A model generated the notes under the pieces. The model was not told the origin of the DNA, searched no databases, and worked only from the letters and a program-made list of their open reading frames with translations. Both the position numbers and the translations under genes were made by a program. Below, piece by piece: positions 4,016 through 57,507 of a stretch of 64,000 nucleotides of DNA. Each line of letters opens with the position of its first letter. The first letter of the stretch is position 1. The stretch comes from Trypanosoma brucei (taxonomy: Eukaryota): assembly GCA_000002445.1 (NCBI GenBank), contig AL929603.2, positions 512,001 through 576,000 on the forward strand, written 5' to 3'.

Positions 4016-4244
4016 CAATTTTTTTTTTCGCTATTTTTTTTTTTTACTCGCCTCCCTATAAAACATACATGGTCACGGTGCACGATACTCTTTCTCACCT
4101 TAAAAGTAAGTGTACGTGAGGTTAACAGTGGTATCGGCGCGCTGGGCGTCGCCACCGGGCATGCGGTTGCAGCACCCCTTCCAAAGTAAATATCGTACAG
4201 TCACAAAGCTGGAAGTTCAAACTCCGGATTTTCTTCTTTTTTTG

Positions 4245-4400
4245 GGTGTGTGTGTGTGTGTGGTGTTGCGGTTTTCTTCGACAGAACTGCACGATTTGAT
4301 TCTGTGTTGCCGTCTGTCCCAAGCCCTACACAATTGCAAAAAAAAAAAAGCTTTCCCACCTTTCTTGCCATTCACTCAACACACACACACACACACAACA
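4245..4400 (+). repeat. Inverted microsatellite pair (GT)9 ... (CA)9 separated by ~120 nt in the zuotin-YIF1 intergenic region
   Basis: 'gtgtgtgtgtgtgtgtgg' at ~4245-4262 and 'cacacacacacacacaaca' at ~4380-4398. (GT)n and (AC)n are reverse complements, so the RNA could form a long-range stem. Confidence 0.7.
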
Positions 4401-4569
4401 AACAAACAGCTCCTGTCACGCGTTTTTGTCCATTGGGAAAATAGGGTTGGGAGCAAACTGGAGGTTGTAAAGGAGAAGGGAGGGAAAAAGGAAACAAGGG
4501 GGCGGCGACGTGCTCCCAGAAAAAATAAATAAATAAAATAGGTAACAGTAACGTGGTTACAATTCGTGT

Positions 4570-5472
4570 ATGGACTCCTTTGGAAACCAGAAACATCCGA
4601 TGAGGCAACAACAACAACAACAGTCGCCTGGGTACCCTGACCAATCTTCATGGGGAGGAACGCAACAGAATGCGATGCTAGAGATCGGGATGCAATACGG
4701 GCAGAATGTCCTTCAAGAAAAAAGTCAAGGTTTTATGAGCTACATATCCGTCGTCACGGGATTCCGCCGTTATTTTCGTGTAGATAACCAGTACGTCAAA
4801 CGCAAGCTCACTATGTTGCTATTCCCTTTTCTATTCAGCATGAAAAAAACAGAGGGTTATAGCAACAACGACTATGAGGAAAGGCGGTATCCTTCAGGAT
4901 TTGGGGGCGATTCGCCTCCTCCGATGCAAGGCGGCAGTTGGTCACCGACATCAACACAAAGCACGGAACAGGTGCCTCCACCAACTGAAGACGTACATGC
5001 ATTTGACTTATATGTGCCACTGATGGGTGCTATAACGTACGTAATCCTTTCTGGTTTCCTCTATGGACTACATCACAACAGCGTGCCGAATGAACAACTT
5101 GTAGGGCCCGCTTGGTCGCTGCTATTTTGGCTTCAAGTGGAAGTTTTCATTCTGAAGCTCGTGTGTCACCTTCTTCGCACCACACCGGCATCAACCATAC
5201 TCGAGCTCACCGCACTATGTTCCTACAAATACATCACGATTTGCCTTGCTGTGTTGCTGAGAGAGGTTTTGCGTTTGGAAGGTGAAACTGTGTATACTTG
5301 GGCAATACTTTTATATGTTGTGCTTGCCAATGCCACATTTGCCGCCAAAACTTTGATGCGCTCGCACCAACGAGAGCAACGCGTTCCGTACAACGCAAAG
5401 GTTTTTGCATATGTTACTGCACTTCTGCAGGCACCCATGACTCTTTGGCTCGCGATACGGCCCTTTCAGTAG
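4570..5472 (+). CDS. YIF1-like (Yip1-interacting factor) Golgi/ER transport membrane protein
   Basis: 300-aa ORF. The Gln-rich N-terminus is followed by the YIF1 signature 'GMQYG...YFRVDNQYVKRKLTMLLFPFL' (cf. human YIF1 'YFAVDTMYVGRKLGLLFFPYL'). Also 'FDLYVPLMGAITYVI' (cf. 'PDLYIPAMAFITYVL') and 'SYKYITI' (cf. 'GYKYVGM'). Multiple C-terminal hydrophobic helices. Confidence 0.8.
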   Translation: MDSFGNQKHPMRQQQQQQSPGYPDQSSWGGTQQNAMLEIGMQYGQNVLQEKSQGFMSYISVVTGFRRYFRVDNQYVKRKLTMLLFPFLFSMKKTEGYSNNDYEERRYPSGFGGDSPPPMQGGSWSPTSTQSTEQVPPPTEDVHAFDLYVPLMGAITYVILSGFLYGLHHNSVPNEQLVGPAWSLLFWLQVEVFILKLVCHLLRTTPASTILELTALCSYKYITICLAVLLREVLRLEGETVYTWAILLYVVLANATFAAKTLMRSHQREQRVPYNAKVFAYVTALLQAPMTLWLAIRPFQ

Positions 5473-5753
5473 GCACGTGCGACTGATAGTTACGTTCCCA
5501 TTCATGTGTGTTGTGCGTGCCAATTGATATTCCACATATGGAGGAACTGCAAGGAAGTTGGTTTGTCCCTTGCGCTGTTCCACACGCAGCTTTCATTAGT
5601 GTTATTGGTGTTGCAATTGTTGTTGTTGTTGTTGTTGTTTTTTTATACAGTTGGTTTACCTGACACTTCCTTCCTCGACCTGAAACCTATCGCGGTGCCT
5701 TCTTTTGTGTTTTGTGTGTTTCCGCCGTATTCTTCAACCGGTACCTGTGCATA

Positions 5754-6431
5754 ATGGCCACCGAAGCGGAGAAGGCGCAGGTAGGAACGCATCCCATCCA
5801 AGAAACAAATAAATTAATTAGTAGTTCGAACGTAATGAATAATGAGCGACCGGCGGCGTGGAACTTGAAGGGCCGCAGCGCAGTTGCCGCCTTCGATCCC
5901 GTTACACGCCACCGTATCCTCCAGTCCCAAACAATGGCCGCTTGCTTTCATCGTCCGCTAATGGCAACGATGGAGGACCTCATTTCCGTGTCGTACGTCG
6001 GCGGATTGAGTGGTCCACTGCGCAAACCTGAACCGTTTATTTGCCTTATTGCGAGGGTGCTGCAAATAACGCCAAACACCGCTATTGTGATGGCAATGCT
6101 TCGGCAGGACGTGCATAAATATTTGCGCGTTGCGGCACTCTTCATCATTAGGCTTATTGGAAATGGCACCGCGATGCGTGAGGCTCTTAGGATAGGATGG
6201 AATGACTACAGGAAAATACGCGTCTATGGAAGCAAAGATGATTGTACATGTGAAACTAAAAGCCAAGATGGTGAAAAAGCGGATACGAATGAAGTGGAGG
6301 GGGAGGCGCTGGTGGCGGCGCCAATTCACGCAATCATGTGCGTAGATGAAATCACGGATCGTTTGTTCAACACCGGGCGAGAGGGTTACAGCAGCACATG
6401 GTTAGGAGTTAACTTTTCTCCGCTCCTGTGA
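5754..6431 (+). CDS. PRP38: PRP38-family pre-mRNA splicing factor
   Basis: 'KPEPFICLIARVLQITPNTAIVMAMLRQDVHKYLRVAALFIIRLIGNGTAMREALRIGWNDYRKIR' aligns closely with human PRP38A 'KPTPFLCLTLKMLQIQPEKDIIVEFIKNEDFKYVRMLGALYMRLTGTAIDCYKYLEPLYNDYRKIK'. 'MCVDEITDRLF' matches 'MHVDEFIDELL'. The start is placed at the in-frame Met 'MATEAEK' (5754) rather than the upstream ATG at 5712. Confidence 0.8.
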   Translation: MATEAEKAQVGTHPIQETNKLISSSNVMNNERPAAWNLKGRSAVAAFDPVTRHRILQSQTMAACFHRPLMATMEDLISVSYVGGLSGPLRKPEPFICLIARVLQITPNTAIVMAMLRQDVHKYLRVAALFIIRLIGNGTAMREALRIGWNDYRKIRVYGSKDDCTCETKSQDGEKADTNEVEGEALVAAPIHAIMCVDEITDRLFNTGREGYSSTWLGVNFSPLL

Positions 6432-8147
6432 AGCACCCTGTCGCCGCGTACAGTTGGGGATGCGATGGGTGCAATATGGAAGGAAAATTAACTGTGACGG
6501 GTGCGACGTCACCGGAATAGGGGGCATTTCTCCTGCAGAATCAGTCCCCGGAACGTAACCCCGTCCCCGTGCTCTCGATGTTTCTCCTCTCTTTCTTTTT
6601 TTTAAACTCGTGCGTGCAAGGAAATGAGAAAGGAGTAGGAAGTTCTCCCTTCGGTTTGTTTCCACATCCCAGGATTCCGTTCAGATATTTTCACGGTACC
6701 GGTGCCGGGATCTGCGCCCGTGTTTTGCGATAGGAGTTCGACGCGGATGTGGTGGTAAACAGACATTGAGGAAAGGGAAGCCTTCAACACAAATGGAAAG
6801 CGCTGACGGAAGGAATCACACGAAGCAGGAATGAGGAGACGGTTCGACACATCGGCCGGATGCGCAACGTAAGTAATAGGGATTTGGGGTTCCTAAAACC
6901 GACGAATAAATTTAAAGACGCCCAGTCTTCCAGCACCCGCTACACATTCCATGCGAATGTTTTGCGTCGTCTGGAGAGTCCGCGAGCAACAGGCTCCAAC
7001 GGCGGTTTACCTTCGATGGGGTGGCTGGCGCCACATCTCCTCATTCGTACGGGAGCGACTTATGTGTTGCCCTCCTGAGGAAATAACTGGAAGGGAGAAG
7101 CGGAGCGGCTCAACCCAATACTGGAAAGTTCACACAGGAAGCCGTTGGAGCGCAAGCACGTATGGTGGTATCACCACCTGAGTTTCGTGCTTTGGAGGGA
7201 AATTAAACAAACCCTAACTCATAAATGCCTCCGCCCGAGTGCTTCCTCTCCTCTTTGAATCACCCATCATCCGCATATGGTGGATGCGGGGATTTATTGT
7301 CATTATTATCGTTGGCGTTACTTGCGAGCAGCGGCCGCATTCGACTACTGGTCCCTCTCCTTTTTTAGTTAGCGGAAAGGGACGGTCGCAGGAGGGGAAG
7401 CGTTTAAAGTAATTTACAAATGTGAAGGTGGAGAATTCAGCACCGTGTCGCCGCGTGGTCCGCAATTCCCTTTCAGCAAGCACACGTGGGAGCCGGGGTT
7501 CCGTGAAGGTCTTCCAGACCACCCAACACCACGACTGGAGGAAAAGGCCCGCATTATGCCTTCATTTTCATATTTAAGGGCGAGGAATTTAAGAACAAAA
7601 ACAGATAAGAAAAACGAAAGACATGGCGCGGCACATTTGCAGCAACCGTGCGCGTACTCAGATTTATGGTGAGGTGGACTGTTCTAGATGTCAGTGGCAG
7701 CAAAGAAAAACAACTAGACCAGTAACAACCGCTAGCCGCATGGCGGAACGCGACGGCCGGCACCCACACATAACGGTGTCCGCAGCTAAGCGCACGTCAT
7801 TACTTACCGTGTAATGCAAATATCAACCCGGCAATCGTGAAGGAAGTTAACTAACCCATCCCTCCTTCAGGTGGCAAGACGACCCCGGTTTCCATTTGCA
7901 ATTCACTTAAGCCTCTGTCCCGGTTCCATTCAACATCCCCGCCAAATGCCAGCTCCAGTCAGTTAGCATCCTGCTTCCCCAACACGTAAAAAATAAATAC
8001 GGGATTGGTCCCGATGCTTCGTTTTCCCCTCTCCTCCACATCTTTGAATTATCGACGGGTTTAAGCGGCCCGTTTCTTCAGCACCGTAACACAATTAGCC
8101 GAGACTGCTCTCACCCCCATCCGAAGCAGCGATACAAACAGAACACA

Positions 8148-8290
8148 ATGTACCACAACAAATACCAACACAAAATGTTCACAAATCACAGCACTCGTTA
8201 CCCACAATTCCGCGTACGAAAGCACACAGAGGAAAAATTGTACACTATTTCACACGGAGGCAGTGGGTGTCACAAATATCCAATCATCGC
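8148..8290 (+). repeat. Dispersed direct repeat copy A (~130-140 bp), partner at 12293-12410
   Basis: 'atgtaccacaacaaataccaacacaaaatgttcacaaatcacagcactcgttacccacaattccgcg...cggaggcagtgggtgtcacaaatatc' vs 'atgtcacaacaaatatcaacacgaaatattcactaatcacaacactcgttacccacaattccatat...cggaagcagtgtgtgtcacaaatgta'. Roughly 80% identity, same orientation, 4145 bp apart. The two copies bracket the minus-strand VSG-related gene. Confidence 0.85.
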
Positions 8291-9079
8291 TGAAAACAAA
8301 CATAAGCACGACAACGAATGTGAAGGAAATCCCAACCACATACACGTGTACCCAGGACTAAACACCATCAGGCTGGCACTTTGGATTGGAAGTCGAATCT
8401 ACGCAAAAGATAGTGTTCACCAAGAACCTTGCACAATTCCTCCTAGAACTTGAGAAACCCCTCATTCCCTTCCAACATGTACTTTCTTCATTCTGGAGGA
8501 ACACTCCACTCAAGGAGAGACTACATACAATGTTGCCTTCCGTATAAGTGGAAATTGTAACCCCTCGCCCCTGTACATTTGGATCGTAAAAAGGTATGTA
8601 GAAGTCTTGGGACCCCAAATACGGTATTACAGCCATAGCGAATGTTTGACAATTAAATTGTCAGTAACCCGCACTTGCCCCTTACAACTAGTTCCAACCT
8701 AACCTATACAAGTCATTAATAAGACAAATATAGTATTATCTGACACAGATAGTAACAAGCTAATAGCACACTCACAACAGAGCATAATATACAAAAAGAG
8801 TTACATAAAGTTTCTAGCTCCCTTGAGATGTCATGGCATCACCAGAGAGCTCTCCAAACAAACCACCGCTATCTTGATAACGGCACTCAGCATTGCTGGC
8901 AGTTACTGCTAAACAAAAAAAATGATACAACATTCATTATTCATCTTAACAAAACAAATTCATATGATATTACTTATACACTCACATATTTAAGAATTAA
9001 ACAATATGCACACGTGTACATGCACAAACCATTAAAAAAACAAGATGCTACGCAACAATGTTGGTAACGTAACAATAAA

Positions 9080-10462
9080 CTAAAACATACAAAAAAGGGA
9101 AAGAATTAATAGCATAACAACACCAGTTTTCACATCTATATAATAGAAACAATCATTATTTACCCCAGTATCATAACCTTCACTGTCACTTTCACCTTGA
9201 GCTCGGTTACTTTTCCATAGCCCAGCATCACCACCAAGTTTCACCTCAAGAAATATTTCCTCTGCCTCATGTTGGTATTCTTCCAATTCGTGAAGATGAC
9301 TGTCAGACTCTTTGGCATACTTTGCCATTTCTTGTAGTTGCTCGGTGGCGTTAGTAAGATGGTTGTACCAAGGAATCCCACCATTTTCAAGTGTGTGATT
9401 GTAACTGACACATGTGAATCCAGCAGTGTAACCCAGGCACGTGCTATTCTCGTTATGGTCTGTTCTCACGTAGCCAAGAATACCCTTTACCTGATGGCCA
9501 TTCTGTCCCAAATTCACTAATGCATCAAACTGAGCTAATGCACTCTTTAAGGTTTTCACATTAGATGCAACATTTTTGTATGCACAAGCCTTACTAATCA
9601 CATCCCAAGCCTCAGTATGGTTGTATTTTATTTTCTTAGGGTCGCACTTGCTGTTATCACCTTTACAAGAATCAGCCATCATAGTCCAACTACCATTTTC
9701 AGGTCTCCTTATTTCATCCTTGCAAGGACAGTTATATCCATTATATATATTGTCATCACTACTGTCTTCGACATCTGAATCATGGTGATGTGTCCCTCTC
9801 TCTTCTTTCTTAACAATGTCGATAGCCTCCCCAACACATAGGCAGAAGAAGTCATTAATTAGTGTCTTTCCAACTAGCTTGTCTCCAAAAGAACCGCAGC
9901 TCGTGGCTGCATTGTAGACACTATTGAACAGCAGTGATTTGTTTCCTCTCATGGCTTCCTCCAGAGTTTTATTCTCATTTCTTGCCACATCCACAGCGTC
10001 GCCATACACAGCTCTCAACATATTTTCCTCAGCAGAACGACTTGCATTTAGCGATCTTGTCCTATTCACTTCTATTTCTTCCTTAAGTTTTTTAGCCTTC
10101 TCAAATAGTTTCTTCATCTCCTGATATGCTGTCGTGCTGTTAGATGAATTGCTCGAGCCCTTATTGCCAGCAACAGTTTCTGCCTCACTGACCATTTCCT
10201 CCAACTTCTTCAGAATCTCTCCTTCCTTCTCACGATTCTTAAAGGAGGGTTGTGGGGCCTCTGCTTGCGTGATTCGGTAAATCCTGCACAGTGTCTCGAA
10301 TTCACCAACGTTGTGGTGCTTTTCTTCTTGATGGACATTATCCCTGATCGCCCTCCAATCAATCAACTCGGGGGTCCACTTGAAAGACCACATATCACCC
10401 TGAGAGGAAGGAGATAAGACAGCCGCAAGCAACGCAATGGCAAACACTGTTTCGCGCCTCAT
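9080..10462 (-). CDS. VSG-related / VSG-like GPI-anchored surface glycoprotein (lone antisense gene)
   Basis: Minus-strand ORF. Start placed at 'MRRETVFAIALLAAVLSPSSQG' (signal-peptide-like). The in-frame upstream extension 'MSLNNNND...' is rejected. The protein has a long helical/coiled N-terminal region and many N-glycosylation sequons (NSS, NST, NRT, NAS, NKT, NHT, NGS, NAT...). It is Cys-rich in the middle and C-terminal parts ('FFCLCVGEA', 'YNCPCKDE', 'DSCKGDNSKCD') and ends in a hydrophobic GPI-signal-like tail 'GVVMLLILSLFCMF'. Size (~460 aa) and architecture are typical of trypanosome VSG/VSG-related proteins. Exact family not resolved. Confidence 0.6.
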   Translation of the reverse strand: MRRETVFAIALLAAVLSPSSQGDMWSFKWTPELIDWRAIRDNVHQEEKHHNVGEFETLCRIYRITQAEAPQPSFKNREKEGEILKKLEEMVSEAETVAGNKGSSNSSNSTTAYQEMKKLFEKAKKLKEEIEVNRTRSLNASRSAEENMLRAVYGDAVDVARNENKTLEEAMRGNKSLLFNSVYNAATSCGSFGDKLVGKTLINDFFCLCVGEAIDIVKKEERGTHHHDSDVEDSSDDNIYNGYNCPCKDEIRRPENGSWTMMADSCKGDNSKCDPKKIKYNHTEAWDVISKACAYKNVASNVKTLKSALAQFDALVNLGQNGHQVKGILGYVRTDHNENSTCLGYTAGFTCVSYNHTLENGGIPWYNHLTNATEQLQEMAKYAKESDSHLHELEEYQHEAEEIFLEVKLGGDAGLWKSNRAQGESDSEGYDTGVNNDCFYYIDVKTGVVMLLILSLFCMF

Positions 10463-12292
10463 CGTGATTTTGCCTCTACATTCATTAGTCAAAGAGAGGG
10501 ACAAAAGCTTATCATTACAGTCATTATTGTTATTGAGAGACACACCCAGTAAACAAATACATCAATATATCGAAGTTAATAAGTGCCTGGGACAAACCAG
10601 CTGCTGCAGCATCCAACAAAGGGGGAAACACACACCAATACACATATTTACATGGGTTCACCCTCCTAAGCTGCATATTAACATTAAACACCCTCACAGC
10701 TGTTTTCCCATTGATTATCTTACTCTTACATATATCTGCATACAATAAATCCACTTTCTTAAACACCATGCTAGATCCTCCACTTTCCCAAGTGGACTGT
10801 GCTCCAGCCTTTTTGATTTCCTCAACAAGCTTATCTATTCTCCTATCGAGCACCTGTACATTTATGTTAAAATTATCCAAATCCTCCATTGGCTTTATTA
10901 ACTTCGGCTGCTACCTTATTGCTTTATTCGCTAGCACATTGCGTACTTAATCCGGACACATGTGTTACCTTTATCCAATGAACACCACTTTGCCGTTAAG
11001 CTTTATTTAGCATATCATCCTTTCTTCATGCATGTGCTGACACAACACTCTTCGTTGCCCTCTCTGCGTGCATGCACAGCTCCTTGCCTTCCATTTTCTT
11101 AAATCACACACTCTTAAAGGTAACAGTTAAATTTTCAAAACGCTTTCATTAGACACTTGTTTTTATTGAAACGTTTCATAATACTGTGATATGATGGAAT
11201 ATTATGTTAGTTGCCAACACACAAAACAGTCCCAGAACAACAAGTGACCTTCCCCATCAGCATCCTCATTTATATTATTTGCGACATAAAAATAATCACC
11301 ATCCTCTCAGTTAACTCTTGCCATCCTCACACCATATGCAAAGAGCATTAACACACTCCACCACCCCAGAGGAAAAATAATGGAGGGGCAGCCTTATTTA
11401 TCATCACTCACGATTAAAATAACTCAAAACAGAAACACTCCAACGAAAGAAATTATAACCTACGACAAACATGTAAGCACACACATGCAAAGATATGTAT
11501 GTTTATCACTATTGTGGGGAGGAGGAGTTATTTATATGAATGCACTTCCTCATAGTAATACAACTAGTACTATTCACACTGCCAATAAGATTCGTGTCGA
11601 GTTGCAGTTAGGCAACATTTCTGTTTACTTCGCTAAAGCATGAAAGGGTGTAAAAAATATATCTGACATCAGCTGGAGGTAAACGGAAGACGATTATTCA
11701 GTAGCATCGAAAAACAATGATGAGAGAAGTGAAGATGTCATGCACTTCATTGACAGAAAGAAAACATTTACATTTCACTAAACAATTAAAGTCATTTACA
11801 GAGCCACTCATAAATAAATTATCCCGTGGAATGGGGCACCTGCTTATGCTTCCACTGACACAATCCCATAATGGACGATATTCGCCATATTGGGATACGG
11901 ACTTACCTATTTAATATCACCCCATACCGTGATAACTGTCTCCATAATAGCCGTGTAGTACGTATTTGCTTTCACAAGAGCATTATATCATATATTGCTT
12001 ACTTCCCTGACACATTCATTATCTTCAGCGAATAATACACCAGCCTTAGCTACAAGATATCCCATTACACTCCAATAAGATATATGTTATCCCTGTCAGT
12101 CACTTTCACTCTGACATCAAACATACAGGATGCTATTGTGTATACTTCCCCATTAACAAACAAGTCCTGCTCCTCACCCCTAACGTAAAGTTCTCTTCAG
12201 TTTATTCAAAAGTTAACTAACACAACATACAAACATAATTAGCTTATATTTTGGGAAATCATATACTGATCCGCTGATACATGCTGCAACAC

Positions 12293-19582: not shown

Positions 19583-22500
19583 ATGTCGGAGTTCGAACTT
19601 ATGAGTGAACTGAGTGAAAGCGCAGCAAAGGGTGCGCTCAGCGAACAGGCAGAAGATGGTCATCGTACCTACTCTCCTGGGCCTGAAGAGGAAGAAAACC
19701 CTGATGCAGCAGGGCGTGAAGGCGCGGCAAAAGATGGATTGGATGCTCATGCTGAAGAGGCCTCCCCAGCGCCATCACCTGCAGGTGAATCGGATGAAAA
19801 GGCCAGCAAATCTGAGCATGAAAGTGAGGCAAAGGAAGGGTCGGATGGCCGTGCTGAAGAGGCCTCCCCAGCGCCATCACCTGCAGGTGAATCGGATGAA
19901 AAGGCCAGCAAATCTGAGCATGAAAGTGAAGTGAAGGAAGGGTCGGATGGCCGTGCTGAAGAGGCCTCCCCAGCGCCATCACCTGCAGGTGAATCGGATG
20001 AAAAGGCCAGCAAATCTGAGCATGAAAGTGAAGTGAAGGAAGGGTCGGATGGCCGTGCTGAGGAAGCTTCCCCAGCGCCATCACCTGCAGGTGAATCGGA
20101 TGAAAAGGCCAGCAAATCTGAGCATGAAAGTGAAGTGAAGGAAGGGTCGGATGGCCGTGCTGAAGAGGCCTCCCCAGCGCCATCACCTGCAGGTGAATCG
20201 GATGAAAAGGCCAGCAAATCTGAGCATGAAAGTGAAGTGAAGGAAGGGTCGGATGACCGTGCTGAGGAAGCTTCCCCAGCGCCATCACCTGCAGGTGAAT
20301 CGGATGAAAAGGCCAGCAAATCTGAGCATGAGAGTGAGGCAAAGGAAGGGTCGGATGGCCGTGCTGAGGAAGCTTCCCCAGCGCCATCACCTGCAGGTGA
20401 ATCGGATGAAAAGGCCAGCAAATCTGAGCGGGAAAGCGGGACCGCTGACGGGTCAAGCGGTCGTCCTGAAGAAGTTTCCCATGCGTTTTCACCTAATAGG
20501 GAATTGGAGGACAAGGCCAATAAATCGGGAGGCGAGAGTGTGACCAAGGGCTCGGATGGCCGCCCCGAAGATATTTCTCATCCGTTTTCACCTAATAGGG
20601 AATTGGAAGAAAAAGCCAATAAATCGGAAGGCGAGAGTGTAACCAAAGATGGATCGGATGGTCATGCTGAAGAAACGTCTCCAGTGCAGTCACCTGAAGG
20701 AGAGGTAGGCGAAAGGTCTGCCGGGGCAGGATCTGATCATGAGAAACAGAAAGGCGAATCATGTTTCGATGACCGTGACACTGGCAATGATCAAGCTGTT
20801 GACCGCAATGCTCACGATGCAGCGCCCCATTTGGACGACAAACACACCAATGGGGCCGCTGCAGATGCTACCGATGCACCACGCCACACTCAAGAGGTCA
20901 ACGACCTGTTCAAGCCTCGAATGACACCTTACAAACAGCCTGACCGTTGGGATCCCATTGAAACCTATCTGGGAGAGGATGTCAGTGATGAGTTGGAGAT
21001 CACCACGGCACGTAAGCCCGTTTTCACCGATGAGGAGAAAGCTGACGTGCCAACCTTTAAGAATGGCGAACCAGACTATGAGGGTGAGTACCTTTCATGT
21101 TTCGATGAGCCTAATCTGCTGTACCGTATTTACAATCGTGAGGAGAAGACGTGGGCCTTCTACAACGACACATACAGCTATGAGATGCATGTACGATTCA
21201 CCTTTGCTAAACTCTCAAAACTTCAGGCACTGGGGAACACGAAGATGTACACTCAAGAGACAGGTGAGCATATTGCGGAAGTCATTGTATATCCTCGGGA
21301 GACCGAGATGTTCGTCAAGGGAAATGCTAATGGCTTTACAAGCAAGCTTCGAGCAGTCCCTCTAACGGAGGAGTACTACGCCCGGCGGCAAGAATTGGCA
21401 AACAACAAGATTCAAGAAGAAATCGCTCGCGTCAAAAGTATCGTTGGCGATGTAACAGATTCGGAGCAGGTTCTCAAGGCCTGTGTTGAAAATGGCATCC
21501 CTTTTGTTGACCTTGAGTTTCCACCATGTCAAGACTCTTTGGCGACCGGTGCAAAAAAGCCGTTCAAACGCCTTCCATGGGTTCGTCCTTCGCAATGCCT
21601 CCCCGATTACATGGCTGATCAGGTGCGCCTCTTCCGAGGACCAATTCGACCTGGCCAGGTGGACCAAGGAGAACTGGGTGACAGTTGGGTCATGTGCTCT
21701 ATAGCGGTGCTGACGGAGCGACCAGACAAGGTCGTCAACATGTTTCGTCACCCAACTGACCCAGAATTGGGTAAGAAGGAGCGTTCTGTGGGCGGTTACC
21801 GCGTATCTCTCAACAAGAATGGGCAATGGCGCAGCGTGATTGTGGATGACTATCTTCCCATGTCTGGTGGCAGGCTAAAATATGCAAAAAGCAGATACGA
21901 CCTCGCGGAAATATGGCCATGCATTCTGGAGAAAGCCTTCGCCAAGCTGCATAATAGTTATGCCAATATCTGCTCCGGTGATCCTCTCCACGCCCTCCAA
22001 GATATGACTGGTTTCCCGACCTCCAGGTTTGACGACGCCTTTGCCAACGCTCCCTTGTCTGGGAAGGACGATCTGTTCCAGGACTGGGTGAGGTATGTGA
22101 AGGCACAGTACCAGATTATCTTAAGCACACCTGGAAAGAATCCAAGAGACAAAGCTTCCGGCGAATGCCACACAGCAAGGCGGTACACAAGCGTGGGTCT
22201 CCTTACAGGTCATGCGTATGTGGTTCTCGATGCAGCATTCTTCCCCGAGTATGAGTTACGTTTGGTAAAGCTGCGTAATGCCTGGGGTCGTGGGTCGGAG
22301 TGGAACGGCGACTGGTCTGACGGCGACGAAAAGTGGGAACGGTATCCAGATGTGGCGGTGAAGTGCGGTTACAGCAATGGTGAGAGCGATGGCACGTTCT
22401 GGATGGCGTGGGATGCATGCTTGCGCTACTTTAACGGCGGGGGCGTGTGCTTCACGAGGAACTCAATCAACGATTACCGTGTACCCTCCACGTTTGTAAA

Positions 22501-49120: not shown

Positions 49121-50243
49121 GGTCATACAATGGGAAATATAGCGGGGGGGAGAGATAAGGAGTGCCTGGGCGTTAGAAGCATAGACACATACGCACACAA
49201 CATAAATATAAATAAATATATATTAGTATATTTACGTATATTTATGTATATGTGTCTGGAGGTTGTCCTGTTTTTTGTTTTTGTTTTCATTTTTCTTAAG
49301 GTGGGAAAGGGATGATGGGGAAATAGAATATTAGCATTCAAATATTTCTCCATCATCCCTTTCTCTCTCTTCTGGTTTCTTGTCTTCCTTCCCCTGCCCA
49401 TTTGTTGCGGGGTGGGGCGGGTTTAAGTACATTATTTGGGTCGTTGGTGTGGTTAATTCCGCGTTGGAGGCCATGCCTTAGGTGCCGTGATGTGGTGTAG
49501 CAGTGGAAAGCGAAACTTCATTCTGTTTGTTTTCGTTTTTTTTTTTTCTTCTTCTTCTTCTTCTTTCCACACACCTTGCAAGTGGAATAACTTCGATGGA
49601 TGGATGCAGTTGACGAAAATTAATATGACGAATTTGTTCGCAGTGTTTTATGCGCCACTGCCGTATGGTGCATTTATGAGAGGACTCTTCTGATTGATAA
49701 TTTTTTTTTAAAAAAAGAAAAAGAAAAAGAAGAAAAAACGAGATGGAAAAAAGAAGGATGGATGGGAATTTTTTAAAAAAAAAACAAAACAAAACAAAAC
49801 AGGGACGCAGCACGCCTGCCTGGTCCCGTCTTTGTGTTTCACTTTTTCCCTTCCTTTTCTTCGTCTTATTTCCAAATCGAACTCTTCTTTTTTTTTTTCT
49901 TTTCATTTTACCGCCCGTGTATGGTTCCACCTGCTGCACGTATAATCACACCTCAATTTGTTAACCACCCTCAATTATTTAGTTTCTGTGCCTTTACTTT
50001 TAATCTCTTCATTATTTGTTGCTTCTCTTCTCGTCCCTTTTCACTGTATGACCATGCTTGAATTACTTGCAACTTACACAATACAAATTTCACACATTTA
50101 AATATGGAAGGTGGAAAAAAAAAAGAAAAAGAAACAAATAATAAACACTACGTTAAGGGCGAACGAATTTGAGGAAGAAGAAGGAGGAGGAGATTTACAC
50201 AAACAAGACAGCAAAATAAAGAAAAAGAAATAAGAAAATAAAA

Positions 50244-50615
50244 ATGGGTTGTGGTGGCTCAAAGACTTCTACGGTTGAGTTTATTAATGGACAGCCGACT
50301 GTTCAGGGCGATGAAATTGTAAAGGGTTTTAATGAAGGAAATGGTCTCCTCTTCCGAATTGTTAAAACACGCGCTGGTCGCTGGGCGTATTATAACGATA
50401 CGTTGGATTATGACATGCATGTGAAAGTTACCTTTAGCGAGGACTGCAGAATTAAGGCACTTGGACAAACGAGACTTGAGAAATTGGAAAGCGGTGAAAG
50501 TGTGGCAACTGTTGTGGTAAAACCATGCGCAACAGAATTATTTATTGAAGGACATGTGAATGGATATAAGGCAAAAATGGATGCCATTCCCATTACTGAT
50601 GGAGACAGGCAATAG
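50244..50615 (+). CDS. Small kinetoplastid calpain-related protein (SKCRP), N-terminal MGCGGS dual-acylation motif; paralogue A
   Basis: 123-aa ORF 'MGCGGSKTSTVEFINGQPTVQGDEIVKGFNEGNGLLFRIVKTRAGRWAYYNDTLDYDMHVKVTF...VVVKPCATELFIEGHVNGYKAKMDAIPITDGDRQ' is domain I(K) only. 'MGCGGS' is identical to the start of the CAP5.5-type calpain N-terminus. Confidence 0.82.
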   Translation: MGCGGSKTSTVEFINGQPTVQGDEIVKGFNEGNGLLFRIVKTRAGRWAYYNDTLDYDMHVKVTFSEDCRIKALGQTRLEKLESGESVATVVVKPCATELFIEGHVNGYKAKMDAIPITDGDRQ

Positions 50616-51157
50616 TAGGGTTGGATGATGTAATGGGGATATATATATATATATATATATTTAAATATATATCAATTTTATGTTTTTTCTTTAAAACAAA
50701 AAAAAAAGAAAGGAAATCTCCTTTATCTCCTCCTCCCTTTTTTTTTACACAATTTTATTATTATTATTATTATTGTTGTTGTTGTTAACTCTATTTATTT
50801 ATTGTGTCGATGTTTTCATTTTTCAAAATGGTGTGTTGTATAGGAGTGGTACGAATAACGAGCGAGACGAAGATAATAAGCATCCATTGATGTTAGTGAT
50901 GTTACCTGTTATTATTATTTTTATTATTGTGACGTTCAGTGGGATAAATGCTTTTGTTTTGTTTATCGAGTTTCATTTTTTGTTGTTGTTCTTGTTATTG
51001 GTGTTCATTTGTTTTTATGGTTGTTTTATTTAATTATTATTTTTATTAATATTATTTTGATCTTCGTGATTTTATTTTATTTTTTTTTTCTCCCTCTTTC
51101 TTTTTACCCTTCCACCGTATATTGAAAAAGCGCATGTTGTTATAATTATTATAATAA

Positions 51158-51189
<32 letters not shown>

Positions 51190-51270
51190 CCGTTGACTTT
51201 TTGTTGTATTTTTCATGTGGCCGCGTAGGGAAGTAAAAAATAAAGAAAGAAGACACGGAGAGAAAACACT

Positions 51271-51301
<31 letters not shown>

Positions 51302-52976
51302 AACAATCAATAAAACTTCTAAAATACAAGCAAAAAAAGGAGGGGGAAAAAATAATAATAATAATAATAAATATATAAATAAATAACAAATGAACAACAG
51401 CTTTTCAGTGGTCGCCTCAGCTAACCAAACATTACCACCGTTGTTGCGAGTAGAGAAGTGTATGAAATAAATGAATACACGGATGAATTATTTTACCTTT
51501 TCTACACTTTTTATATTTGTTTTTTGTTCGTTTGTTTGTTTCCAAAAAAAAAAAGAAGTAAAGAAAGATGGCGATGAATGAATGAATGAAAATGAAGCGT
51601 TCAGTAAAAAAACGGAGAGAAGATAAGAAAATGAAATGAAATGATAGAGAGAAAGAGAAAGAGAGAAAGGAAAAAAGAAAGGAAGGAAGGAGGAGAAAAG
51701 AAAATGTGTGTGAGTGTTTGTGTGTTTTCTTTTTTTGTTTTTTCGTTAGCGCTGTTATTTTGTTATGTTCATTTCCTTTTTATGATTCCACACTTGACCA
51801 TCCTCCTCCTCTGTTGTTGTTGTTGTTTTTTCCCCCTTTTTTTTCTTTTTTTTCTTGGGGAAGCAATTAATGTTGTTTTGTTTGTTTTTGCGCACTTTAT
51901 TATCATTATTATTATTATTATTATTATTTCCCGCATGTGATGTGAAACCAACAAAAATATCACAAAGGCGGGGAGAAAACAACAACAACAAATGAAAGCA
52001 CAAAATAAAAAAAATAAAAAAAAGAGTGTTTGGGACCCCATTAGAAGGATGAAAGAAAAGGAGAGTGAATGAATAAAATCAGAATATAGACATAGAAATG
52101 AGGAGAAAAAGGGGCTAAATAAGACGCATGTATGTGTGGAGGAAGGGAGGGAGAGAGAGAAATATATATATATATATATATAACAAAAATGGCGGAACGA
52201 TTCTTTAAAAAAAAAAAGACAAGAAAAAGTTTAAACGGTGGGTTTACACGCACACGAGCATGCAAAAAAAAAAAGTTTCTTATTTATTATTTTTTATTTC
52301 TTTTTTTTTTCTCTTTTTTTTTTTTAATCATTTGTTGTGTTTCACCGTGGTTCGCCTGGTTTTTATCTTCTTTGTTACATTTATTATTTTATCGTGTCAC
52401 ACCCCTCGTCCTGTTATTTCCATAATTGCCTTTTCAAAAGATGAAATTCCCAACCTTTTTATTTTAATTTCATGTTTCTTTTCTTTTCTGACTCTTTTCT
52501 CTTTCCGTATCTTATTCTATTTTTGTTTTTGTTTTGCGAAATAACGAAAATACATCGCAAAATAAAATAAATAAATATTAACACAATCTGGTAAACTCAG
52601 GGATTATTTTAGTCACTACAGTTACCACCACAACAACAACAACAAAGAACTATTACGATAAATATTTGTTAACAAAGGGGGAAATATAGTAATAAATATT
52701 ATTATTATCATTATTATTATTACTCTCGTTAGTGCTAGCAAAAGAAATATATATATTTGCCTTATTTGCACAAAAGAAGTCACACGCAAATATTCACTAG
52801 CGCAAGCAAACATAAGTTAAAATAAAGAAAGAAAAAAGGGAACACATTCATATAAAGATAAACTACAAAAACACAGCAGAGAAAGGAAGAAAAGTAGGAT
52901 AGAAAGGGAAGGGGAAAAAGTAATTCCAAAAGAGTAAGAAAATAAATAAAAAGAAAAAAGAAAAAAGAAAATAAAA

Positions 52977-53366
52977 ATGGGTTGCGGTGGCTCAACGACT
53001 TCCGTCACATTCATCAACGGCCGGCCGACTGTTCAGGGCGATGAAATTGCGAAGGGTTTTAATGAAGGAAATGGTCTCCTCTTCCGAATTGTTAACTCAA
53101 GCACTGGTCGCTGGGCGTATTATAACGATACGTTGGATTATGACATGCATGTGAAAGTTACCTTTAGCGAGGACTGCAAAATTAAGGCACTTGGAAAGGC
53201 AAAGTTGGAGCGTTTGAGCTCTGGTGAAAGTGTGGTGACTGTTGTGGTAAAACCATGCGCAACAGAATTATTTATTGAAGGCACTGTGAATGGATATAAG
53301 GCAAAAATGGATGCCATTCCCATTACTGATGGAGACAGGCGCCGCAGGGGATCTGGCAGGAAATAA
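52977..53366 (+). CDS. Small kinetoplastid calpain-related protein (SKCRP), MGCGGS motif; paralogue B with basic C-terminal extension
   Basis: 129-aa ORF, about 90% identical to the 50244 ORF. Long internal stretches are nucleotide-identical (e.g. 'ccgactgttcagggcgatgaaattg', 'ggttttaatgaaggaaatggtctcctcttccgaattgtta', 'ggtcgctgggcgtattataacgatacgttggattatgacatgcatgtgaaagttacctttagcgaggactgca'). It ends '...DGDRRRRGSGRK' versus '...DGDRQ' in paralogue A. Confidence 0.82.
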   Translation: MGCGGSTTSVTFINGRPTVQGDEIAKGFNEGNGLLFRIVNSSTGRWAYYNDTLDYDMHVKVTFSEDCKIKALGKAKLERLSSGESVVTVVVKPCATELFIEGTVNGYKAKMDAIPITDGDRRRRGSGRK

Positions 53367-54783
53367 GGAAATTGCAAGAAATATGCAAGAAAAGAAAAGA
53401 AAAGAAAAGAAAATGCACACAAACACAAAGCACACAAAGAGGTAAATGAGAATGAGAATGAGAGTAGAGGAAGTCAAATATTTGTTTTTTTTTATTTATT
53501 TCGTTTGCATTCTTTCTTAGAAGAGTGAGTTGTTTTCTCTCTTTTCTTTTTATGATTGTTGTCTTGACAGATGTTATGGCCGTGTTATTAAGCATATTAA
53601 AGAAAAGGAAGAGAGGAGAGGAGAGGAAAAGAGGGAGAGAGAAAAGAGGGAATACAGGAGAGGGTAAGGGGAATGGAAGAGAAGGGAATACAAATGAAAA
53701 ATAAAAAAAAAGAAGGGGGGGGGAAAAAATACAAGACGTTCAACATGAAATAAAATAAAATGAAAGGTAAATAAAAGCAATTTATGGGGCGACACGGCGC
53801 TGTTTCCGCCCATCTTCCCCACCCCCATCCCTCACATTTTTTTTTCTTGTATTGATTCATCCTGTTTTTTATTGTTACTATTTATTCATGCTGTTTTGTT
53901 TTTTTTTTTTTGTACTTATGAGTTGAGAAGGAGAGAAACAACAACGAATACCAAAAATAAATAAATAAAAAATATACTTGCACGTATGCATGCATGCATC
54001 TTTATTTTGTTTTTGTTTTTGTTTTTGTTGTTGTTGTTGTTGTGTTTCGTATATATGTATATATATATATATGTCTGTATCTCTATCTCTATCTCTCTCT
54101 CTCATTTTCACTCCATATCATTCTTCAATTATGTCAAGTCATGTCTCATCATGTCTTGTCTCTTCCCCATTTTATTTTTCTCTTTTTTCGGTCTTGTATT
54201 CGACCGCAATTTGTTTGTTTGTTTGTTTTGGCACCTTCTTTTTTCTTTTTTTTTCTTTTTTTCTTTTGAATTCTGTTAACCATTCAAAAGAAGGAGTTTT
54301 TTTTTCTTCTTTGGAAGAAGGAGAAGGAGAAGGAAAGAAAAGAAAAGAAAAGGAAGAAAAAAAAAAGAAGGATCAAAAAGAGATCAGACATGTACACAGT
54401 GGGACGTGGGGGAAAGGAATATTAGGCACGCATTAATGCATGAATTGAATAAATTATTCAATCATTATTTCATATCAGTGCATAAGAAAGTTAAAAGAGA
54501 AAAAGAAGGGGAGGAGATGGAAAAAGAAAAAAAGAAAAAAGAAAAAAATAAGAGGTGTGATGAATATGAAATGAAAAAGAATGAAATAAAACGAATATGT
54601 GCGCACGAGGCAATTTATTAGGGGGAAAAAGAAACAGAGAGAGGGGGGAATAGGGCCGAGGGGACGGAATTTTAAGCGCTTGCTGAAAGGTTTCAGTCGC
54701 AAAAGTCTAATGATATATTAAATGGGTGAAGGGAAAGGAAGGGAAGCCCCCCCCCCAAAAAAAAAAAAAAGAAAGAAATGTCT

Positions 54784-56622: not shown

Positions 56623-57507
56623 TTGTTTTGTTTTTCTTCTCTTCTTCTCATGCGTTGCTGCAGCACGGCGCTTCGCACGGGTCGGAGGGGCCCTGGTGGG
56701 TGGACGGAGCCGCGACTTCAACAAGCCACCAGTACCGATTTTATGCGTGACTCCACCGGCACTGGTGGTGACAATAATAATAATAATAATAATGATGGCG
56801 GAAAGGGGCCGTCCTCGGCTCTCAAGCGGCATTTTAACGTCAACGATTTCTCTATGATTGAGCGGCAACAAATGACACTCACGAAACTGATGCGCATCAC
56901 GATGGATGCAACTTTTAAACCGAAAGATCCCGACAGCAGGACATATGGCGGAGACGGTGCCACGCAGAGAGCGGCACTTCGGGAAGAGCTCAAAACAATG
57001 GACAGTCGAATTGTCCCCTTCGCTCACGAGGAAATATTAAACGACTACCTTAAAAACATAGTGGAGCTCTCCGGTCCCTCGGGTCAGCGATATGATAGAG
57101 AAATGTTGCGAGGCAGACTCGTTGGCCTCCTTTTCTTCACCGAAACGGATCGATCACTGGCATTCATGAGGTTGTTGCGGGAGTTCCATCAGCGGCACAG
57201 ACGTGACTTTGTAGTTGTCGCCATATCTCTCGGTGGAAAGGAGATGATGGATATCACTCGACAACATGGTTTCTACCACTGCAGCCATCGTGACGGGGCC
57301 ACATGGGTTCAGCGTGATACAGGTTTAATGGTGCGCCCATGGACACCACTTCCAAGGCTTATTGTCGTCAATGGTACAAGTGGTGAGGAAATCACTTCTA
57401 GCGGTGTTACAGCTGTAAAGGCGCATCCAAACACATGTTTTGAAAAGTGGAAAAATGGGGAGGAGGGATGTGATTGGTGGGATTACATCAAAACGTTCTA
57501 TATGTGA
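56623..57507 (+). CDS. Tryparedoxin-like (thioredoxin-fold) protein lacking the WCPPC active site; possible N-terminal organellar presequence
   Basis: C-terminal ~150 aa align with tryparedoxin: 'LRGRLVGLLFFTETDRSLAFMRLLREFHQRHRRDFVVVAISLGG' (TXN '[47 protein letters not shown]'), 'LPRLIVVNGTSGEEITSSG' (TXN 'IPTLITINADTGAIIGTQ'). The CPPC dithiol is replaced by TDRS. The N-terminus 'MFCFSSLLLMRCCSTALRTGRRGPGG' is Arg/hydroxyl-rich with no acidic residues, which is presequence-like. The true start may be an internal Met (e.g. 56650). Confidence 0.55.
   Translation: MFCFSSLLLMRCCSTALRTGRRGPGGWTEPRLQQATSTDFMRDSTGTGGDNNNNNNNDGGKGPSSALKRHFNVNDFSMIERQQMTLTKLMRITMDATFKPKDPDSRTYGGDGATQRAALREELKTMDSRIVPFAHEEILNDYLKNIVELSGPSGQRYDREMLRGRLVGLLFFTETDRSLAFMRLLREFHQRHRRDFVVVAISLGGKEMMDITRQHGFYHCSHRDGATWVQRDTGLMVRPWTPLPRLIVVNGTSGEEITSSGVTAVKAHPNTCFEKWKNGEEGCDWWDYIKTFYM

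What the first reader, a model, noticed from the sequence alone, without database searches (positions are those of the whole stretch)
50244..53366. SKCRP paralogue pair 2.7 kb apart with a homogenised core but divergent 5' codons, C-terminal tail and flanks (gene conversion signature)
The two ORFs share long runs of nucleotide identity in their central two-thirds. Differences cluster in codons 7-16 (KTSTVEFINGQ vs TTSVTFINGR) and at the 3' end, where DGDRQ* contrasts with DGDRRRRGSGRK*, a poly-Arg tail. The 5' and 3' flanks are only loosely similar purine- and pyrimidine-rich sequence. That pattern is what partial gene conversion over the CDS core produces. The basic tail on copy B could alter localisation or partner binding. 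Because UTRs control mRNA abundance in trypanosomes, the divergent UTRs could give the two copies different stage regulation.
Basis: seen in the sequence. Interest (0 to 1): 0.5.

Follow-up and report, generated by a model that had tools for sequence, protein, structure and literature searches.

The report
Tandem SMP1 genes homogenised by gene conversion
Two neighbouring Trypanosoma brucei genes for small lipid-anchored membrane proteins (SKCRP1.6 and SKCRP1.7, also called TbSMP1-1 and TbSMP1-2) are an ancient duplicate pair whose coding cores keep being copied onto each other while their ends and untranslated flanks stay different, which is a clear but ordinary case of concerted evolution in trypanosomes.

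Summary
ORF A (50244-50615, 123 aa) and ORF B (52977-53366, 129 aa) are 88% identical over -26 to +367 relative to the ATG, and their flanks do not align. They are Tb927.1.2230 (SKCRP1.6, TbSMP1-1) and Tb927.1.2260 (SKCRP1.7, TbSMP1-2). Each is a DUF1935-only protein with an MGC dual-acylation motif, orthologous to Leishmania SMP-1 (PDB 2FE0).

The gene-conversion reading is supported by comparative data:
- **Synteny.** The same NAP - SMP x2 - Thioredoxin_8 arrangement occurs in T. b. gambiense, T. vivax, T. cruzi, T. theileri and Phytomonas. T. congolense has two genes with adjacent accessions.
- **Grouping.** In all five Trypanosoma species the two copies group by species (bootstrap 93-100).
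- **Boundaries.** In the four species with DNA, homology stops at the CDS edges. In T. vivax the CDS is 99.7% identical and the flanks are unalignable.
- **Positional orthology.** T. brucei B and T. congolense copy 2 share the N-terminal variant and the polybasic tail.

Three main islands (A codons 7-17, 41-44, 75-83) have saturated silent divergence (pS 0.80) against 0.06 in the blocks between them. The basic tail is ancestral to copy 2, not new. Copy A is reported as procyclic-upregulated. The genes and the process are both known, so interest is modest.

The parts
50244..50615 (+). Copy A CDS: SKCRP1.6 / TbSMP1-1 (Tb927.1.2230), 123 aa, MGCGGS acylation motif plus DUF1935 domain, short acidic tail ...DGDRQ*
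   Evidence: ORF. Pfam DUF1935 E=1.4e-38. PDB 2fe0 SMP-1 E=6.8e-49. Protein identical to TREU927 entry P0019. Names from bioRxiv 10.1101/2020.05.07.083568 and PMC4969678.
52977..53366 (+). Copy B CDS: SKCRP1.7 / TbSMP1-2 (Tb927.1.2260), 129 aa, same motif and domain, polybasic tail RRRRGSGRK*
   Evidence: ORF. Pfam DUF1935 E=1.2e-37. 100% identical to P0002. C9ZIF6 is named SKCRP1.7 in PMC4969678.
50218..50610 (+). Homology (conversion) tract on copy A: from 26 nt upstream of the ATG to codon 123
   Evidence: blastn 88.4% over 397 columns.
52950..53340 (+). Homology (conversion) tract on copy B
   Evidence: blastn.
50262..50294 (+). Island 1 in A (codons 7-17; in B 52995-53024). Unconverted N-terminal segment just after the acylation motif, with a 1-codon indel. 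Its state is shared by position with T. congolense copy 1 / copy 2.
   Evidence: The model shows no secondary structure before residue 24 and pLDDT below 50 only for residues 1-8.
50364..50375 (+). Island 2 in A (codons 41-44 KTRA; in B 53094-53105 NSST), at the end of a strand and the following hairpin turn
50466..50492 (+). Island 3 in A (codons 75-83 QTRLEKLES; in B 53196-53222 KAKLERLSS). Includes multi-step silent changes (CTT/TTG Leu, AGC/TCT Ser).
53340..53366 (+). Polybasic tail of B (codons 122-129 plus stop), outside the homology tract. The counterpart in A is 50610-50615 (Q123 plus stop).
50616..52976 (+). A-B intergenic region (inferred: A 3'UTR, polyadenylation / trans-splicing signals, B 5'UTR). 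Unrelated to the other flanks. Contains the annotated 'unlikely' ORFs Tb927.1.2240 and Tb927.1.2250, whose expression tags follow A.
   Evidence: PMC2837033.
48149..49120 (+). Upstream syntenic anchor: NAP-domain gene
   Evidence: synteny.
56623..57507 (+). Downstream syntenic anchor: Thioredoxin_8-domain gene, followed by the tubulin array from 58482
   Evidence: synteny.

Best explanation
A and B are the two members of an ancient tandem pair of SMP-1-type genes. These encode DUF1935-only beta-sandwich proteins with an N-terminal Gly2 myristoylation / Cys3 palmitoylation motif, which attach to the inner face of the plasma or flagellar membrane. The pair predates the Trypanosoma radiation.

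Recurrent non-reciprocal homologous recombination (gene conversion) between the two direct repeats, 2.7 kb apart, keeps overwriting the coding core. As a result the copies track the species rather than their positional orthologues.

Tracts stop where homology stops: about 26 nt upstream of the ATG and at the start of the C-terminal tail. In T. brucei they also stop at three short internal islands. I infer that these islands are too mismatched to be included in heteroduplex, or are protected by selection, or both.

The outcome is two isoforms with a near-identical fold but:
- different sequence just after the acylation motif;
- different tail charge (A net -1, B net +4);
- completely different UTRs, which allow independent post-transcriptional control (A is procyclic-enriched).

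Shown here: the sequence mosaic, synteny, species-wise clustering, CDS-limited homology and positional signatures at the ends. Inferred: the recombination mechanism, what sets the tract boundaries, and the functional meaning of the isoform-specific parts.
For: 1. Family identity: Pfam DUF1935, PDB SMP-1 2fe0 at E=6.8e-49, and a confident all-beta model with mean pLDDT 87.6.
2. Conserved NAP - DUF1935 x2 - Thioredoxin_8 arrangement in T. b. gambiense, T. vivax, T. cruzi, T. theileri and Phytomonas. T. congolense has two genes with adjacent accessions.
3. dS is 0-0.25 within species and saturated between species. In the NJ tree every pair is monophyletic by species, bootstrap 93-100.
4. Paralogue homology is limited to the CDS in every species with DNA: T. 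vivax -4..+385 at 99.7%, T. theileri -97..+383, T. cruzi -176..+390, T. brucei -26..+367. Flanks are unalignable.
5. Four-taxon site patterns for T. brucei and T. congolense: 11 species-grouping sites, all in alignment columns 57-121. E/T at column 12, the N-terminal indel and the RRR.RGS.R tail group B with T. congolense copy 2.
6. Tail charge is position-specific in four species: copy 1 is -1, -2, +1, -2 and copy 2 is +4, +4, +7, +2.
7. Mosaic: dispersion p<5e-5. pS is 0.80 in islands and 0.062 in blocks, while the same blocks have pS 0.72-0.85 between species. Silent differences co-cluster with replacements, OR 19, p=6e-4.
8. Hints of ongoing exchange. In T. cruzi, one G/A polymorphism is shared in phase by both paralogues on two contigs of one assembly, presumed haplotypes. 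In T. equiperdum OVI, copy A carries the B state GGC ACT at codons 103-104 in an otherwise A-type gene.
Against: - No T. congolense DNA was available, so the four-taxon test is at protein level only. It has no informative species-grouping sites in the first 56 residues.
- Strict positional-orthology support rests on few characters: one substitution, one indel region, and the tail motif and charge.
- The island definition used for the pS contrast is post hoc. The permutation and Fisher tests are not.
- The T. equiperdum micro-tract could be a polishing artefact, because that contig ends 480 nt after the gene.
- The T. cruzi shared polymorphism is a single site.
- Mechanism and selection on the islands are inferred, not measured.
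Confidence: 0.85

Rival explanations
1. Independent, recent tandem duplications in each Trypanosoma lineage. The copies are young everywhere, so no conversion is needed.
For: Within-species copies are far more alike than positional orthologues. Copy number does vary in the family, for example the Angomonas array of about 10 genes.
Against: - The same two-gene arrangement lies between the same anchors in six taxa.
- Homology ends at the CDS edges even where the CDSs are 99.7% identical, as in T. vivax. A fresh duplication would also copy the flanks.
- N-terminal and tail states are shared by position between T. brucei and T. congolense, and tail charge is position-specific in four species.
- The T. 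brucei islands have saturated silent divergence.
Confidence: 0.05
2. No conversion. The blocks are identical because of very strong purifying selection, including on silent sites through codon usage or RNA structure, and the islands are simply unconstrained loops.
For: The islands map to the segment before the first strand, to turns and strand ends, and to the tail of the model. The blocks contain most of the invariant family residues.
Against: The same blocks have pS 0.72-0.85 between species, so silent sites there are free to change. Silent differences between A and B co-cluster with replacements, as expected for segments of different age and not for variable protein constraint.
Confidence: 0.03
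3. The internal islands (A codons 41-44 and 75-83) are not old unconverted relics. They are newer patches, introduced by ectopic conversion from another donor or by local diversifying selection on a recently homogenised gene.
For: T. congolense gives no positional signal for these two islands, because both its copies are alike there. Both islands lie mostly in loops and turns, spanning only a short strand (residues 77-80) in between. In T. cruzi the paralogue dN/dS is about 1.
Against: - No plausible donor exists. The other five DUF1935 sequences in the window are only 32-46% identical, and protein searches returned no other close T. brucei relative.
- The islands carry multi-step silent changes (AGC/TCT Ser, CTT/TTG Leu). 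Selection on the protein does not produce these.
Confidence: 0.07
4. One copy is an assembly duplicate or a chimera.
For: One T. b. equiperdum assembly (L007) lacks the B gene and part of the intergenic region.
Against: A and B differ at 41 of 363 aligned CDS sites and have unrelated flanks. Both are present with the same differences in T. b. gambiense DAL972. Both have separate database entries, and B (SKCRP1.7) was identified by proteomics (PMC4969678).
Confidence: 0.01

Closest known systems
Leishmania major SMP-1 (small myristoylated protein 1, PDB 2FE0) and the SMP / SKCRP (group 3 calpain-related, DUF1935-only) family
   Same: A aligns end to end with SMP-1 at E=6.8e-49, including the MGC acylation motif. 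Each protein consists of a single DUF1935 domain, and the model is all-beta. The genes are published as TbSMP1-1 and TbSMP1-2, and TbSMP1-1 depends on G2 for membrane association (bioRxiv 10.1101/2020.05.07.083568).
   Different: TbSMP1-1-GFP is reported at the cell periphery rather than exclusively in the flagellum, as for Leishmania SMP-1 and T. cruzi SMP1-1 (PMC9949143). The T. brucei pair differs in tail charge. Nothing has been published, in what I could search, on localisation or function of B.
Concerted evolution of tandem gene arrays in T. brucei (Jackson 2007, PMC1855330)
   Same: Intraspecific duplicates cluster by species, gene conversion is the homogenising force, and sequence mosaics occur within arrays.
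   Different: That survey links unalignable UTRs with copies that escape concerted evolution and keep orthology across species. Here the UTRs are completely unrelated, yet the CDS core is still homogenised in every Trypanosoma species examined. The chr1 SKCRP pair was not found in the paper's text or its four held supplementary files, which list only a chr7 calpain-like pair, array 58a.
Stage-specific paralogue pairs in the same superfamily (CAP5.5 / CAP5.5V)
   Same: They are calpain-related paralogues with life-cycle-specific mRNA levels. SKCRP1.6 is procyclic-enriched, like CAP5.5 (PMC4181241, citing Liu et al. 2010).
   Different: CAP5.5 and CAP5.5V are on different chromosomes and are full-length calpain-like proteins. 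I know of no evidence that they evolve in concert.

Membership tests
SKCRP / SMP family (DUF1935-only kinetoplastid proteins) | Consists only of the kinetoplastid N-terminal calpain-related domain (DUF1935), with no Peptidase_C2 domain | tested here: met
   Pfam: one DUF1935 hit covering residues 13-116 (A) and 12-115 (B), and nothing else. For contrast, the 1146-aa gene at 19583 has DUF1935 plus Peptidase_C2.
SKCRP / SMP family (DUF1935-only kinetoplastid proteins) | N-terminal dual-acylation motif (Met-Gly-Cys, MGXXXS/T) | tested here: met
   Both start MGCGGS. M1, G2, C3 and S6 are invariant in 16 homologues. Acylation itself cannot be tested here. G2A delocalises TbSMP1-1 (bioRxiv 10.1101/2020.05.07.083568).
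SKCRP / SMP family (DUF1935-only kinetoplastid proteins) | Sequence and fold relationship to the solved SMP-1 structure | tested here: met
   phmmer vs PDB: 2fe0_A at E=6.8e-49 over the full length. AF2 model has 9 strands, pLDDT 87.6. I ran no structural superposition.
Concerted evolution by gene conversion | Paralogues within a species are more similar than positional orthologues between species | tested here: met
   dS 0-0.25 within species vs saturated between. Species-wise clades with bootstrap 93-100 in five species.
Concerted evolution by gene conversion | The duplication is older than the speciation events (so this is not repeated recent duplication) | tested here: met
   Conserved two-copy synteny. 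Position-specific N-terminal and tail states in T. brucei and T. congolense. Position-specific tail charge in four species. CDS-limited homology.
Concerted evolution by gene conversion | Mosaic of segments with discordant divergence (significant clustering of differences) | tested here: met
   Permutation p<5e-5. pS 0.80 vs 0.062. Fisher p=6e-4 for co-clustering of silent and replacement differences.
Concerted evolution by gene conversion | Directly observed transfer events or shared paralogous polymorphism within populations | tested here: inconclusive
   One in-phase shared G/A polymorphism in T. cruzi. One 5-nt B-type patch in copy A of T. equiperdum OVI. The first is a single site and the second may be an assembly artefact.
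Concerted evolution by gene conversion | Dependence on the homologous recombination machinery (RAD51, mismatch repair limits) | not testable with these tools
   Needs genetics.

The most novel reading that the evidence does not exclude
The parts that escape homogenisation are held by selection, and they define two functionally distinct SMP1 isoforms conserved by gene position across the Trypanosoma species sampled. These parts are the segment immediately after the acylation motif, two surface loops and the tail. Copy 1 has a neutral or acidic tail. Copy 2 has a polybasic tail that would add electrostatic membrane binding or change membrane-domain targeting. The fold-forming core is kept identical by conversion, possibly because the two proteins act as interchangeable or hetero-oligomerising subunits. 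On this reading the locus would be a compact natural example of selection drawing sharp boundaries around conversion tracts, down to about 12-33 nt.
Probability: 0.3. Interest if true: 0.45.

Novelty: new member of a known kind. Interest (0 to 1): 0.3.

Why it matters
The practical value is local.

- **Orthology assignment.** Orthology and naming of SMP1-1 and SMP1-2 across trypanosomes cannot be read from whole-gene trees. Only the N-terminal segment, the tail and gene position carry that signal.
- **Read and peptide mapping.** RNA-seq reads and proteomic peptides from the core are ambiguous between the two genes. Only UTR, island and tail sequences discriminate them.
- **A testable hypothesis.** The position-conserved tail charge difference predicts that swapping tails should change membrane distribution.

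As evolutionary biology it adds a clean, multi-species example of CDS-limited conversion with unrelated UTRs. This is partly at odds with the generalisation that divergent flanks release trypanosome duplicates from concerted evolution. It does not reveal a new kind of element or mechanism.

Tried and rejected
- **T. congolense DNA.** An exact-protein look-up for the T. congolense gene (P0003) found no contig, so the four-taxon test could only be done on proteins. A look-up for the window A protein also returned nothing, probably because my reference included the stop codon. The protein equals TREU927 entry P0019.
- **Cross-species flank comparison.** I looked for positional orthology in the UTRs of T. 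brucei against T. vivax, T. cruzi and T. theileri. Only poly-T and TA low-complexity matches came up. This was a dead end.
- **Extra DUF1935 relics.** I searched the NAP-to-tubulin interval with the additional T. cruzi and T. theileri paralogues as queries. There were no hits besides A and B.
- **Donor for the islands.** The other five DUF1935 sequences in the window are 32-46% identical and cannot be donors.
- **Jackson 2007 text and supplements.** No entry for this pair.
- **Papers not held.** Tull et al. 2004 (PMC524726) is not in the library. Ersfeld et al. 2005 and Liu et al. 2010 were not read directly and are cited only through reviews.
- **Tools not run.** I did not run the promoter/terminator scan or the RNA-family tools. 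Bacterial-type signals are irrelevant to polycistronic trypanosome transcription.
Full report
**What is in the sequence.**
The window carries two ATG-initiated ORFs on the + strand. A is 50244-50615 (123 aa) and B is 52977-53366 (129 aa). Their starts are 2733 nt apart.
- BLASTP gives 86% identity.
- blastn gives one alignment, 50218-50610 against 52950-53340, at 88.4% identity.
- A global alignment with 300 nt of flank shows identity falling to background (0.24-0.5) immediately outside that interval.
- With 1 kb of flank, nothing else aligns except simple repeats.

**Identity of the genes and the locus.**
Both proteins consist of one Pfam DUF1935 domain (E about 1e-38). A aligns over its whole length with Leishmania major small myristoylated protein 1 (PDB 2fe0, E=6.8e-49). 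An AlphaFold model built from 16 homologues is a confident all-beta domain (pLDDT 87.6).

Database relatives identify the organism as Trypanosoma brucei.
- B is 100% identical to a T. b. gambiense protein that is also recorded on a 1,064,672-bp contig.
- A equals the TREU927 protein.

Gene order in the window is Raptor-like (41182), NAP (48149), A, B, Thioredoxin_8 (56623), then the tubulin array (58482 onward). Five further DUF1935 hits lie upstream, at 21038, 24418, 28949, 34277 and 36865.

Published names are as follows.
- Tb927.1.2230 is TbSMP1-1 and Tb927.1.2260 is TbSMP1-2 (bioRxiv 10.1101/2020.05.07.083568).
- Tb927.1.2160 is SKCRP1-5 (PMC7952579).
- UniProt C9ZIF6 is SKCRP1.7 (PMC4969678). 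It is the accession next to C9ZIF5, which is copy A in T. b. gambiense.
- I therefore take A to be SKCRP1.6 and B to be SKCRP1.7.

**The differences are clustered, and the core is a mosaic.**
Over 363 aligned CDS sites there are 41 differences.
- In permutations that keep the number of differences per codon position, the dispersion in 15-nt bins is 2.90 against 0.85 expected (p<5e-5).
- The longest identical run is 75 nt against 35 expected (p=0.0015).

It also shows two dense internal islands, A codons 41-44 (KTRA/NSST) and 75-83 (QTRLEKLES/KAKLERLSS). Isolated differences occur at A codons 3, 26, 69, 88 and 103-104.

Silent divergence is 0.80 per synonymous site in the three islands and 0.062 in the remaining 98 codons. 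The islands were delimited after looking at the data, so I added a test that does not depend on that choice. Among codons encoding the same amino acid in both copies, silent differences lie overwhelmingly within two codons of a replacement: 9 of 38 against 1 of 63, OR 19, p=6e-4.

The islands also contain multi-step silent changes (AGC/TCT Ser, CTT/TTG Leu). Selection on the protein cannot create these, so the islands look old and the blocks look young.

**Comparative evidence that the pair is ancient but homogenised.**
Exact-protein look-ups returned syntenic loci.
- **T. b. gambiense:** NAP, a 123-aa and a 129-aa DUF1935 gene, Thioredoxin_8, tubulin.
- **T. vivax:** Raptor, NAP, 129-aa and 130-aa DUF1935 genes, Thioredoxin_8, tubulin.
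- **T. cruzi:** NAP, a 209-aa DUF1935 gene, then 131-aa and 133-aa DUF1935 genes, Thioredoxin_8.
- **T. theileri:** a 217-aa DUF1935 gene, then 149-aa and 131-aa DUF1935 genes, Thioredoxin_8.
- **Phytomonas:** NAP, 121-aa and 139-aa DUF1935 genes, Thioredoxin_8.
- **T. congolense:** two genes with adjacent accession numbers that fall in one 90%-identity cluster.

Synonymous divergence between species is saturated, whereas within species it is:

| Species | dS between the two copies |
|---|---|
| T. vivax | 0 |
| T. cruzi | 0.13 |
| T. theileri | 0.15 |
| T. brucei | 0.25 |

In a neighbour-joining tree, each species' two copies form a clade with 93-100% bootstrap.

In every species with DNA, nucleotide homology between the copies is confined to the CDS and a short upstream stretch:

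| Species | Homology relative to the ATG | Identity |
|---|---|---|
| T. vivax | -4 to +385 | 99.7% |
| T. theileri | -97 to +383 | 96.7% |
| T. cruzi | -176 to +390 | 92.2% |
| T. brucei | -26 to +367 | 88.4% |

A duplication recent enough to give 99.7% identity would have carried its flanks with it. CDS-limited identity next to unalignable flanks is the classic mark of conversion. The 5' boundary differs between lineages, while the 3' boundary always falls where the tails begin.

**The ends keep positional orthology.**
I aligned the four T. brucei and T. congolense proteins.
- Eleven sites group the copies by species. All lie in alignment columns 57-121.
- No site groups A with copy 2.
- Glu/Thr at column 12, the N-terminal deletion (one residue in B, three in T. 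congolense copy 2) and the tail group by position. The tails are RRRRGSGRK in B and RRRKRGSRR in T. congolense copy 2, against RQ and KRAE in the copy-1 genes.

Tail net charge is position-specific in four species. Copy 1 is -1, -2, +1, -2 and copy 2 is +4, +4, +7, +2 for T. brucei, T. congolense, T. cruzi and T. theileri respectively. In T. vivax, conversion has run almost to the stop codon and both tails are basic.

The polybasic tail is therefore the conserved state of copy 2 and not an innovation of T. brucei B. This positional evidence rests on few characters, and I could not obtain T. congolense DNA.

**Hints that exchange is ongoing.**
- In T. cruzi, two contigs of one assembly (presumably the two haplotypes) differ at position 87 of copy 1 (G/A) and at the homologous position 84 of copy 2. 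The same alleles occur in the same phase. Copy 2 has only that one difference, so coincidence seems unlikely, but it is a single site.
- In T. equiperdum OVI, copy A is A-type throughout except codons 103-104. These read GGC ACT as in B, instead of GGA CAT: three changes within 5 nt. This would be a micro-conversion bounded by A-specific sites at codons 88 and 123. Because the contig ends 480 nt downstream, a polishing artefact cannot be excluded.

**Mechanism.**
The best reading is recurrent gene conversion between direct repeats 2.7 kb apart. Tracts end where homology ends. This is inference from pattern.

From general knowledge of T. brucei recombination, and not tested here, I would expect two things. 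Mismatch repair should reject heteroduplex across densely mismatched stretches, which would make the islands and the tail self-reinforcing barriers. Selection against loss of isoform-specific residues may add to this.

On the model, the islands fall in the N-terminal segment before the first strand, the 42-45 hairpin turn, the 73-85 loop-strand-loop, and the tail. This placement is compatible with surface or functional differences. It is equally compatible with simple tolerance of change.

**Function and regulation.**
Published work places SMP-1 on the inner face of the flagellar membrane in Leishmania and SMP1-1 in the flagellum of T. cruzi (PMC9949143). TbSMP1-1-GFP is at the cell periphery in a Gly2-dependent way and binds Unc119.

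Digital expression profiling found Tb927.1.2230 4.1-fold higher in procyclic forms. The two annotated 'unlikely' ORFs downstream of it, Tb927.1.2240 and Tb927.1.2250, were 7.9- and 4.0-fold higher (PMC2837033). I take these ORFs to lie in the A 3'UTR. A review citing Liu et al. 2010 lists SKCRP1.6 as procyclic-enriched (PMC4181241).

**Rivals.**
- **Independent duplication in each lineage.** Contradicted by synteny, CDS-limited homology and the positional end signatures.
- **Purifying selection without conversion.** Contradicted by saturated silent divergence of the same blocks between species.
- **Ectopic origin of the internal islands.** Cannot be fully excluded, but no donor exists in the window or among close database relatives.
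- **Assembly duplication.** Excluded by the independent T. b. gambiense assembly.

**Novelty and score.**
The genes, their family and the process are all known. Jackson (2007, PMC1855330) documented concerted evolution through gene conversion across T. brucei tandem arrays.

I did not find this pair in that paper's text or its four held supplementary files. It also runs somewhat against the paper's observation that copies with unalignable UTRs tend to escape homogenisation.

I could not read Ersfeld et al. 2005, which may already comment on the similarity of SKCRP1.6 and SKCRP1.7.

I rate this as a new, well-resolved member of a known kind, with interest 0.3.

Noticed in passing
L007 (T. b. 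equiperdum IVM-t1 chr1) vs window 50648-53531: This chromosome-level assembly lacks the equivalent of A's 3' flank, the whole B gene and about 165 nt beyond it. Copy A is intact with its own tail, so this is not a simple A/B crossover product. It is either a real 2.9-kb deletion or an assembly collapse.
   Followed up: partly
L006 5001-5372 (T. equiperdum OVI copy A), equivalent to window 50550-50555: Codons 103-104 read GGC ACT, the B state, in an otherwise A-type gene. This is a candidate micro-conversion of 5 to about 100 nt, or a polishing artefact, since the contig ends 480 nt after the stop.
   Followed up: partly
L003 5996-6391 and 8001-8402 vs L004 (T. cruzi, two contigs of one assembly): A G/A polymorphism at copy 1 position 87 is mirrored, in phase, at the homologous position 84 of copy 2. 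This shared paralogous polymorphism suggests recent conversion.
   Followed up: partly
L003 8001-8402 (T. cruzi copy 2); P0005 (T. conorhini): Both tails end in ...CCS (GGCCS, SNCCS). This could be an extra C-terminal cysteine lipidation site and is absent from the T. brucei proteins.
   Followed up: no
L005 5476-5925 (T. theileri copy 1): This copy carries an Asn-rich tail (NNNNTNNNENNNNENNNNN) after an otherwise near-identical domain.
   Followed up: no
window 50262-50294 vs 52995-53024: All six purely silent differences in the N-terminal island are T- or A-ending codons in A and C-ending codons in B. This is a local GC3 shift of unknown cause.
   Followed up: no
L008 (Angomonas deanei) 1678-11486: The same locus, upstream of Thioredoxin_8, is expanded to about 10 DUF1935 genes. 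Three of them are 100% identical copies, two more are 98% identical to each other, and the rest are 39-62% identical to one another.
   Followed up: partly
L010 7700-8065 and 9001-9420 (Phytomonas sp. Hart1): The syntenic pair is only 66% identical in protein, yet a central 252-nt stretch is 77.8% identical in DNA. This may reflect older or partial conversion.
   Followed up: no
L003 5048-5677 and 10506-10916; L005 4057-4710 and 11745-12155: T. cruzi and T. theileri have two extra DUF1935 genes at this locus: one of 209/217 aa before the pair and one of 136 aa after Thioredoxin_8. Neither has a detectable relic in the T. brucei window, and none is called in the T. vivax locus.
   Followed up: partly
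window 19583-37257: Five more DUF1935-bearing genes lie upstream. Three are large ORFs (19583-23023, 24256-26325, 28718-30916). I scanned only the first, which has DUF1935 plus Peptidase_C2. Two are small DUF1935-only genes (34235-34657 and 36865-37257). By order these would be CALP1.1-1.3 and SKCRP1.4-1.5. They are only 32-46% identical to A and B.
   Followed up: partly
window 50640-50661 and 51270-51296: (TA)n microsatellites sit about 25 nt after A's stop codon and again about 650 nt downstream. The A-B spacing differs by 246 nt between T. b. brucei and T. b. gambiense (2733 vs 2487 nt).
   Followed up: no
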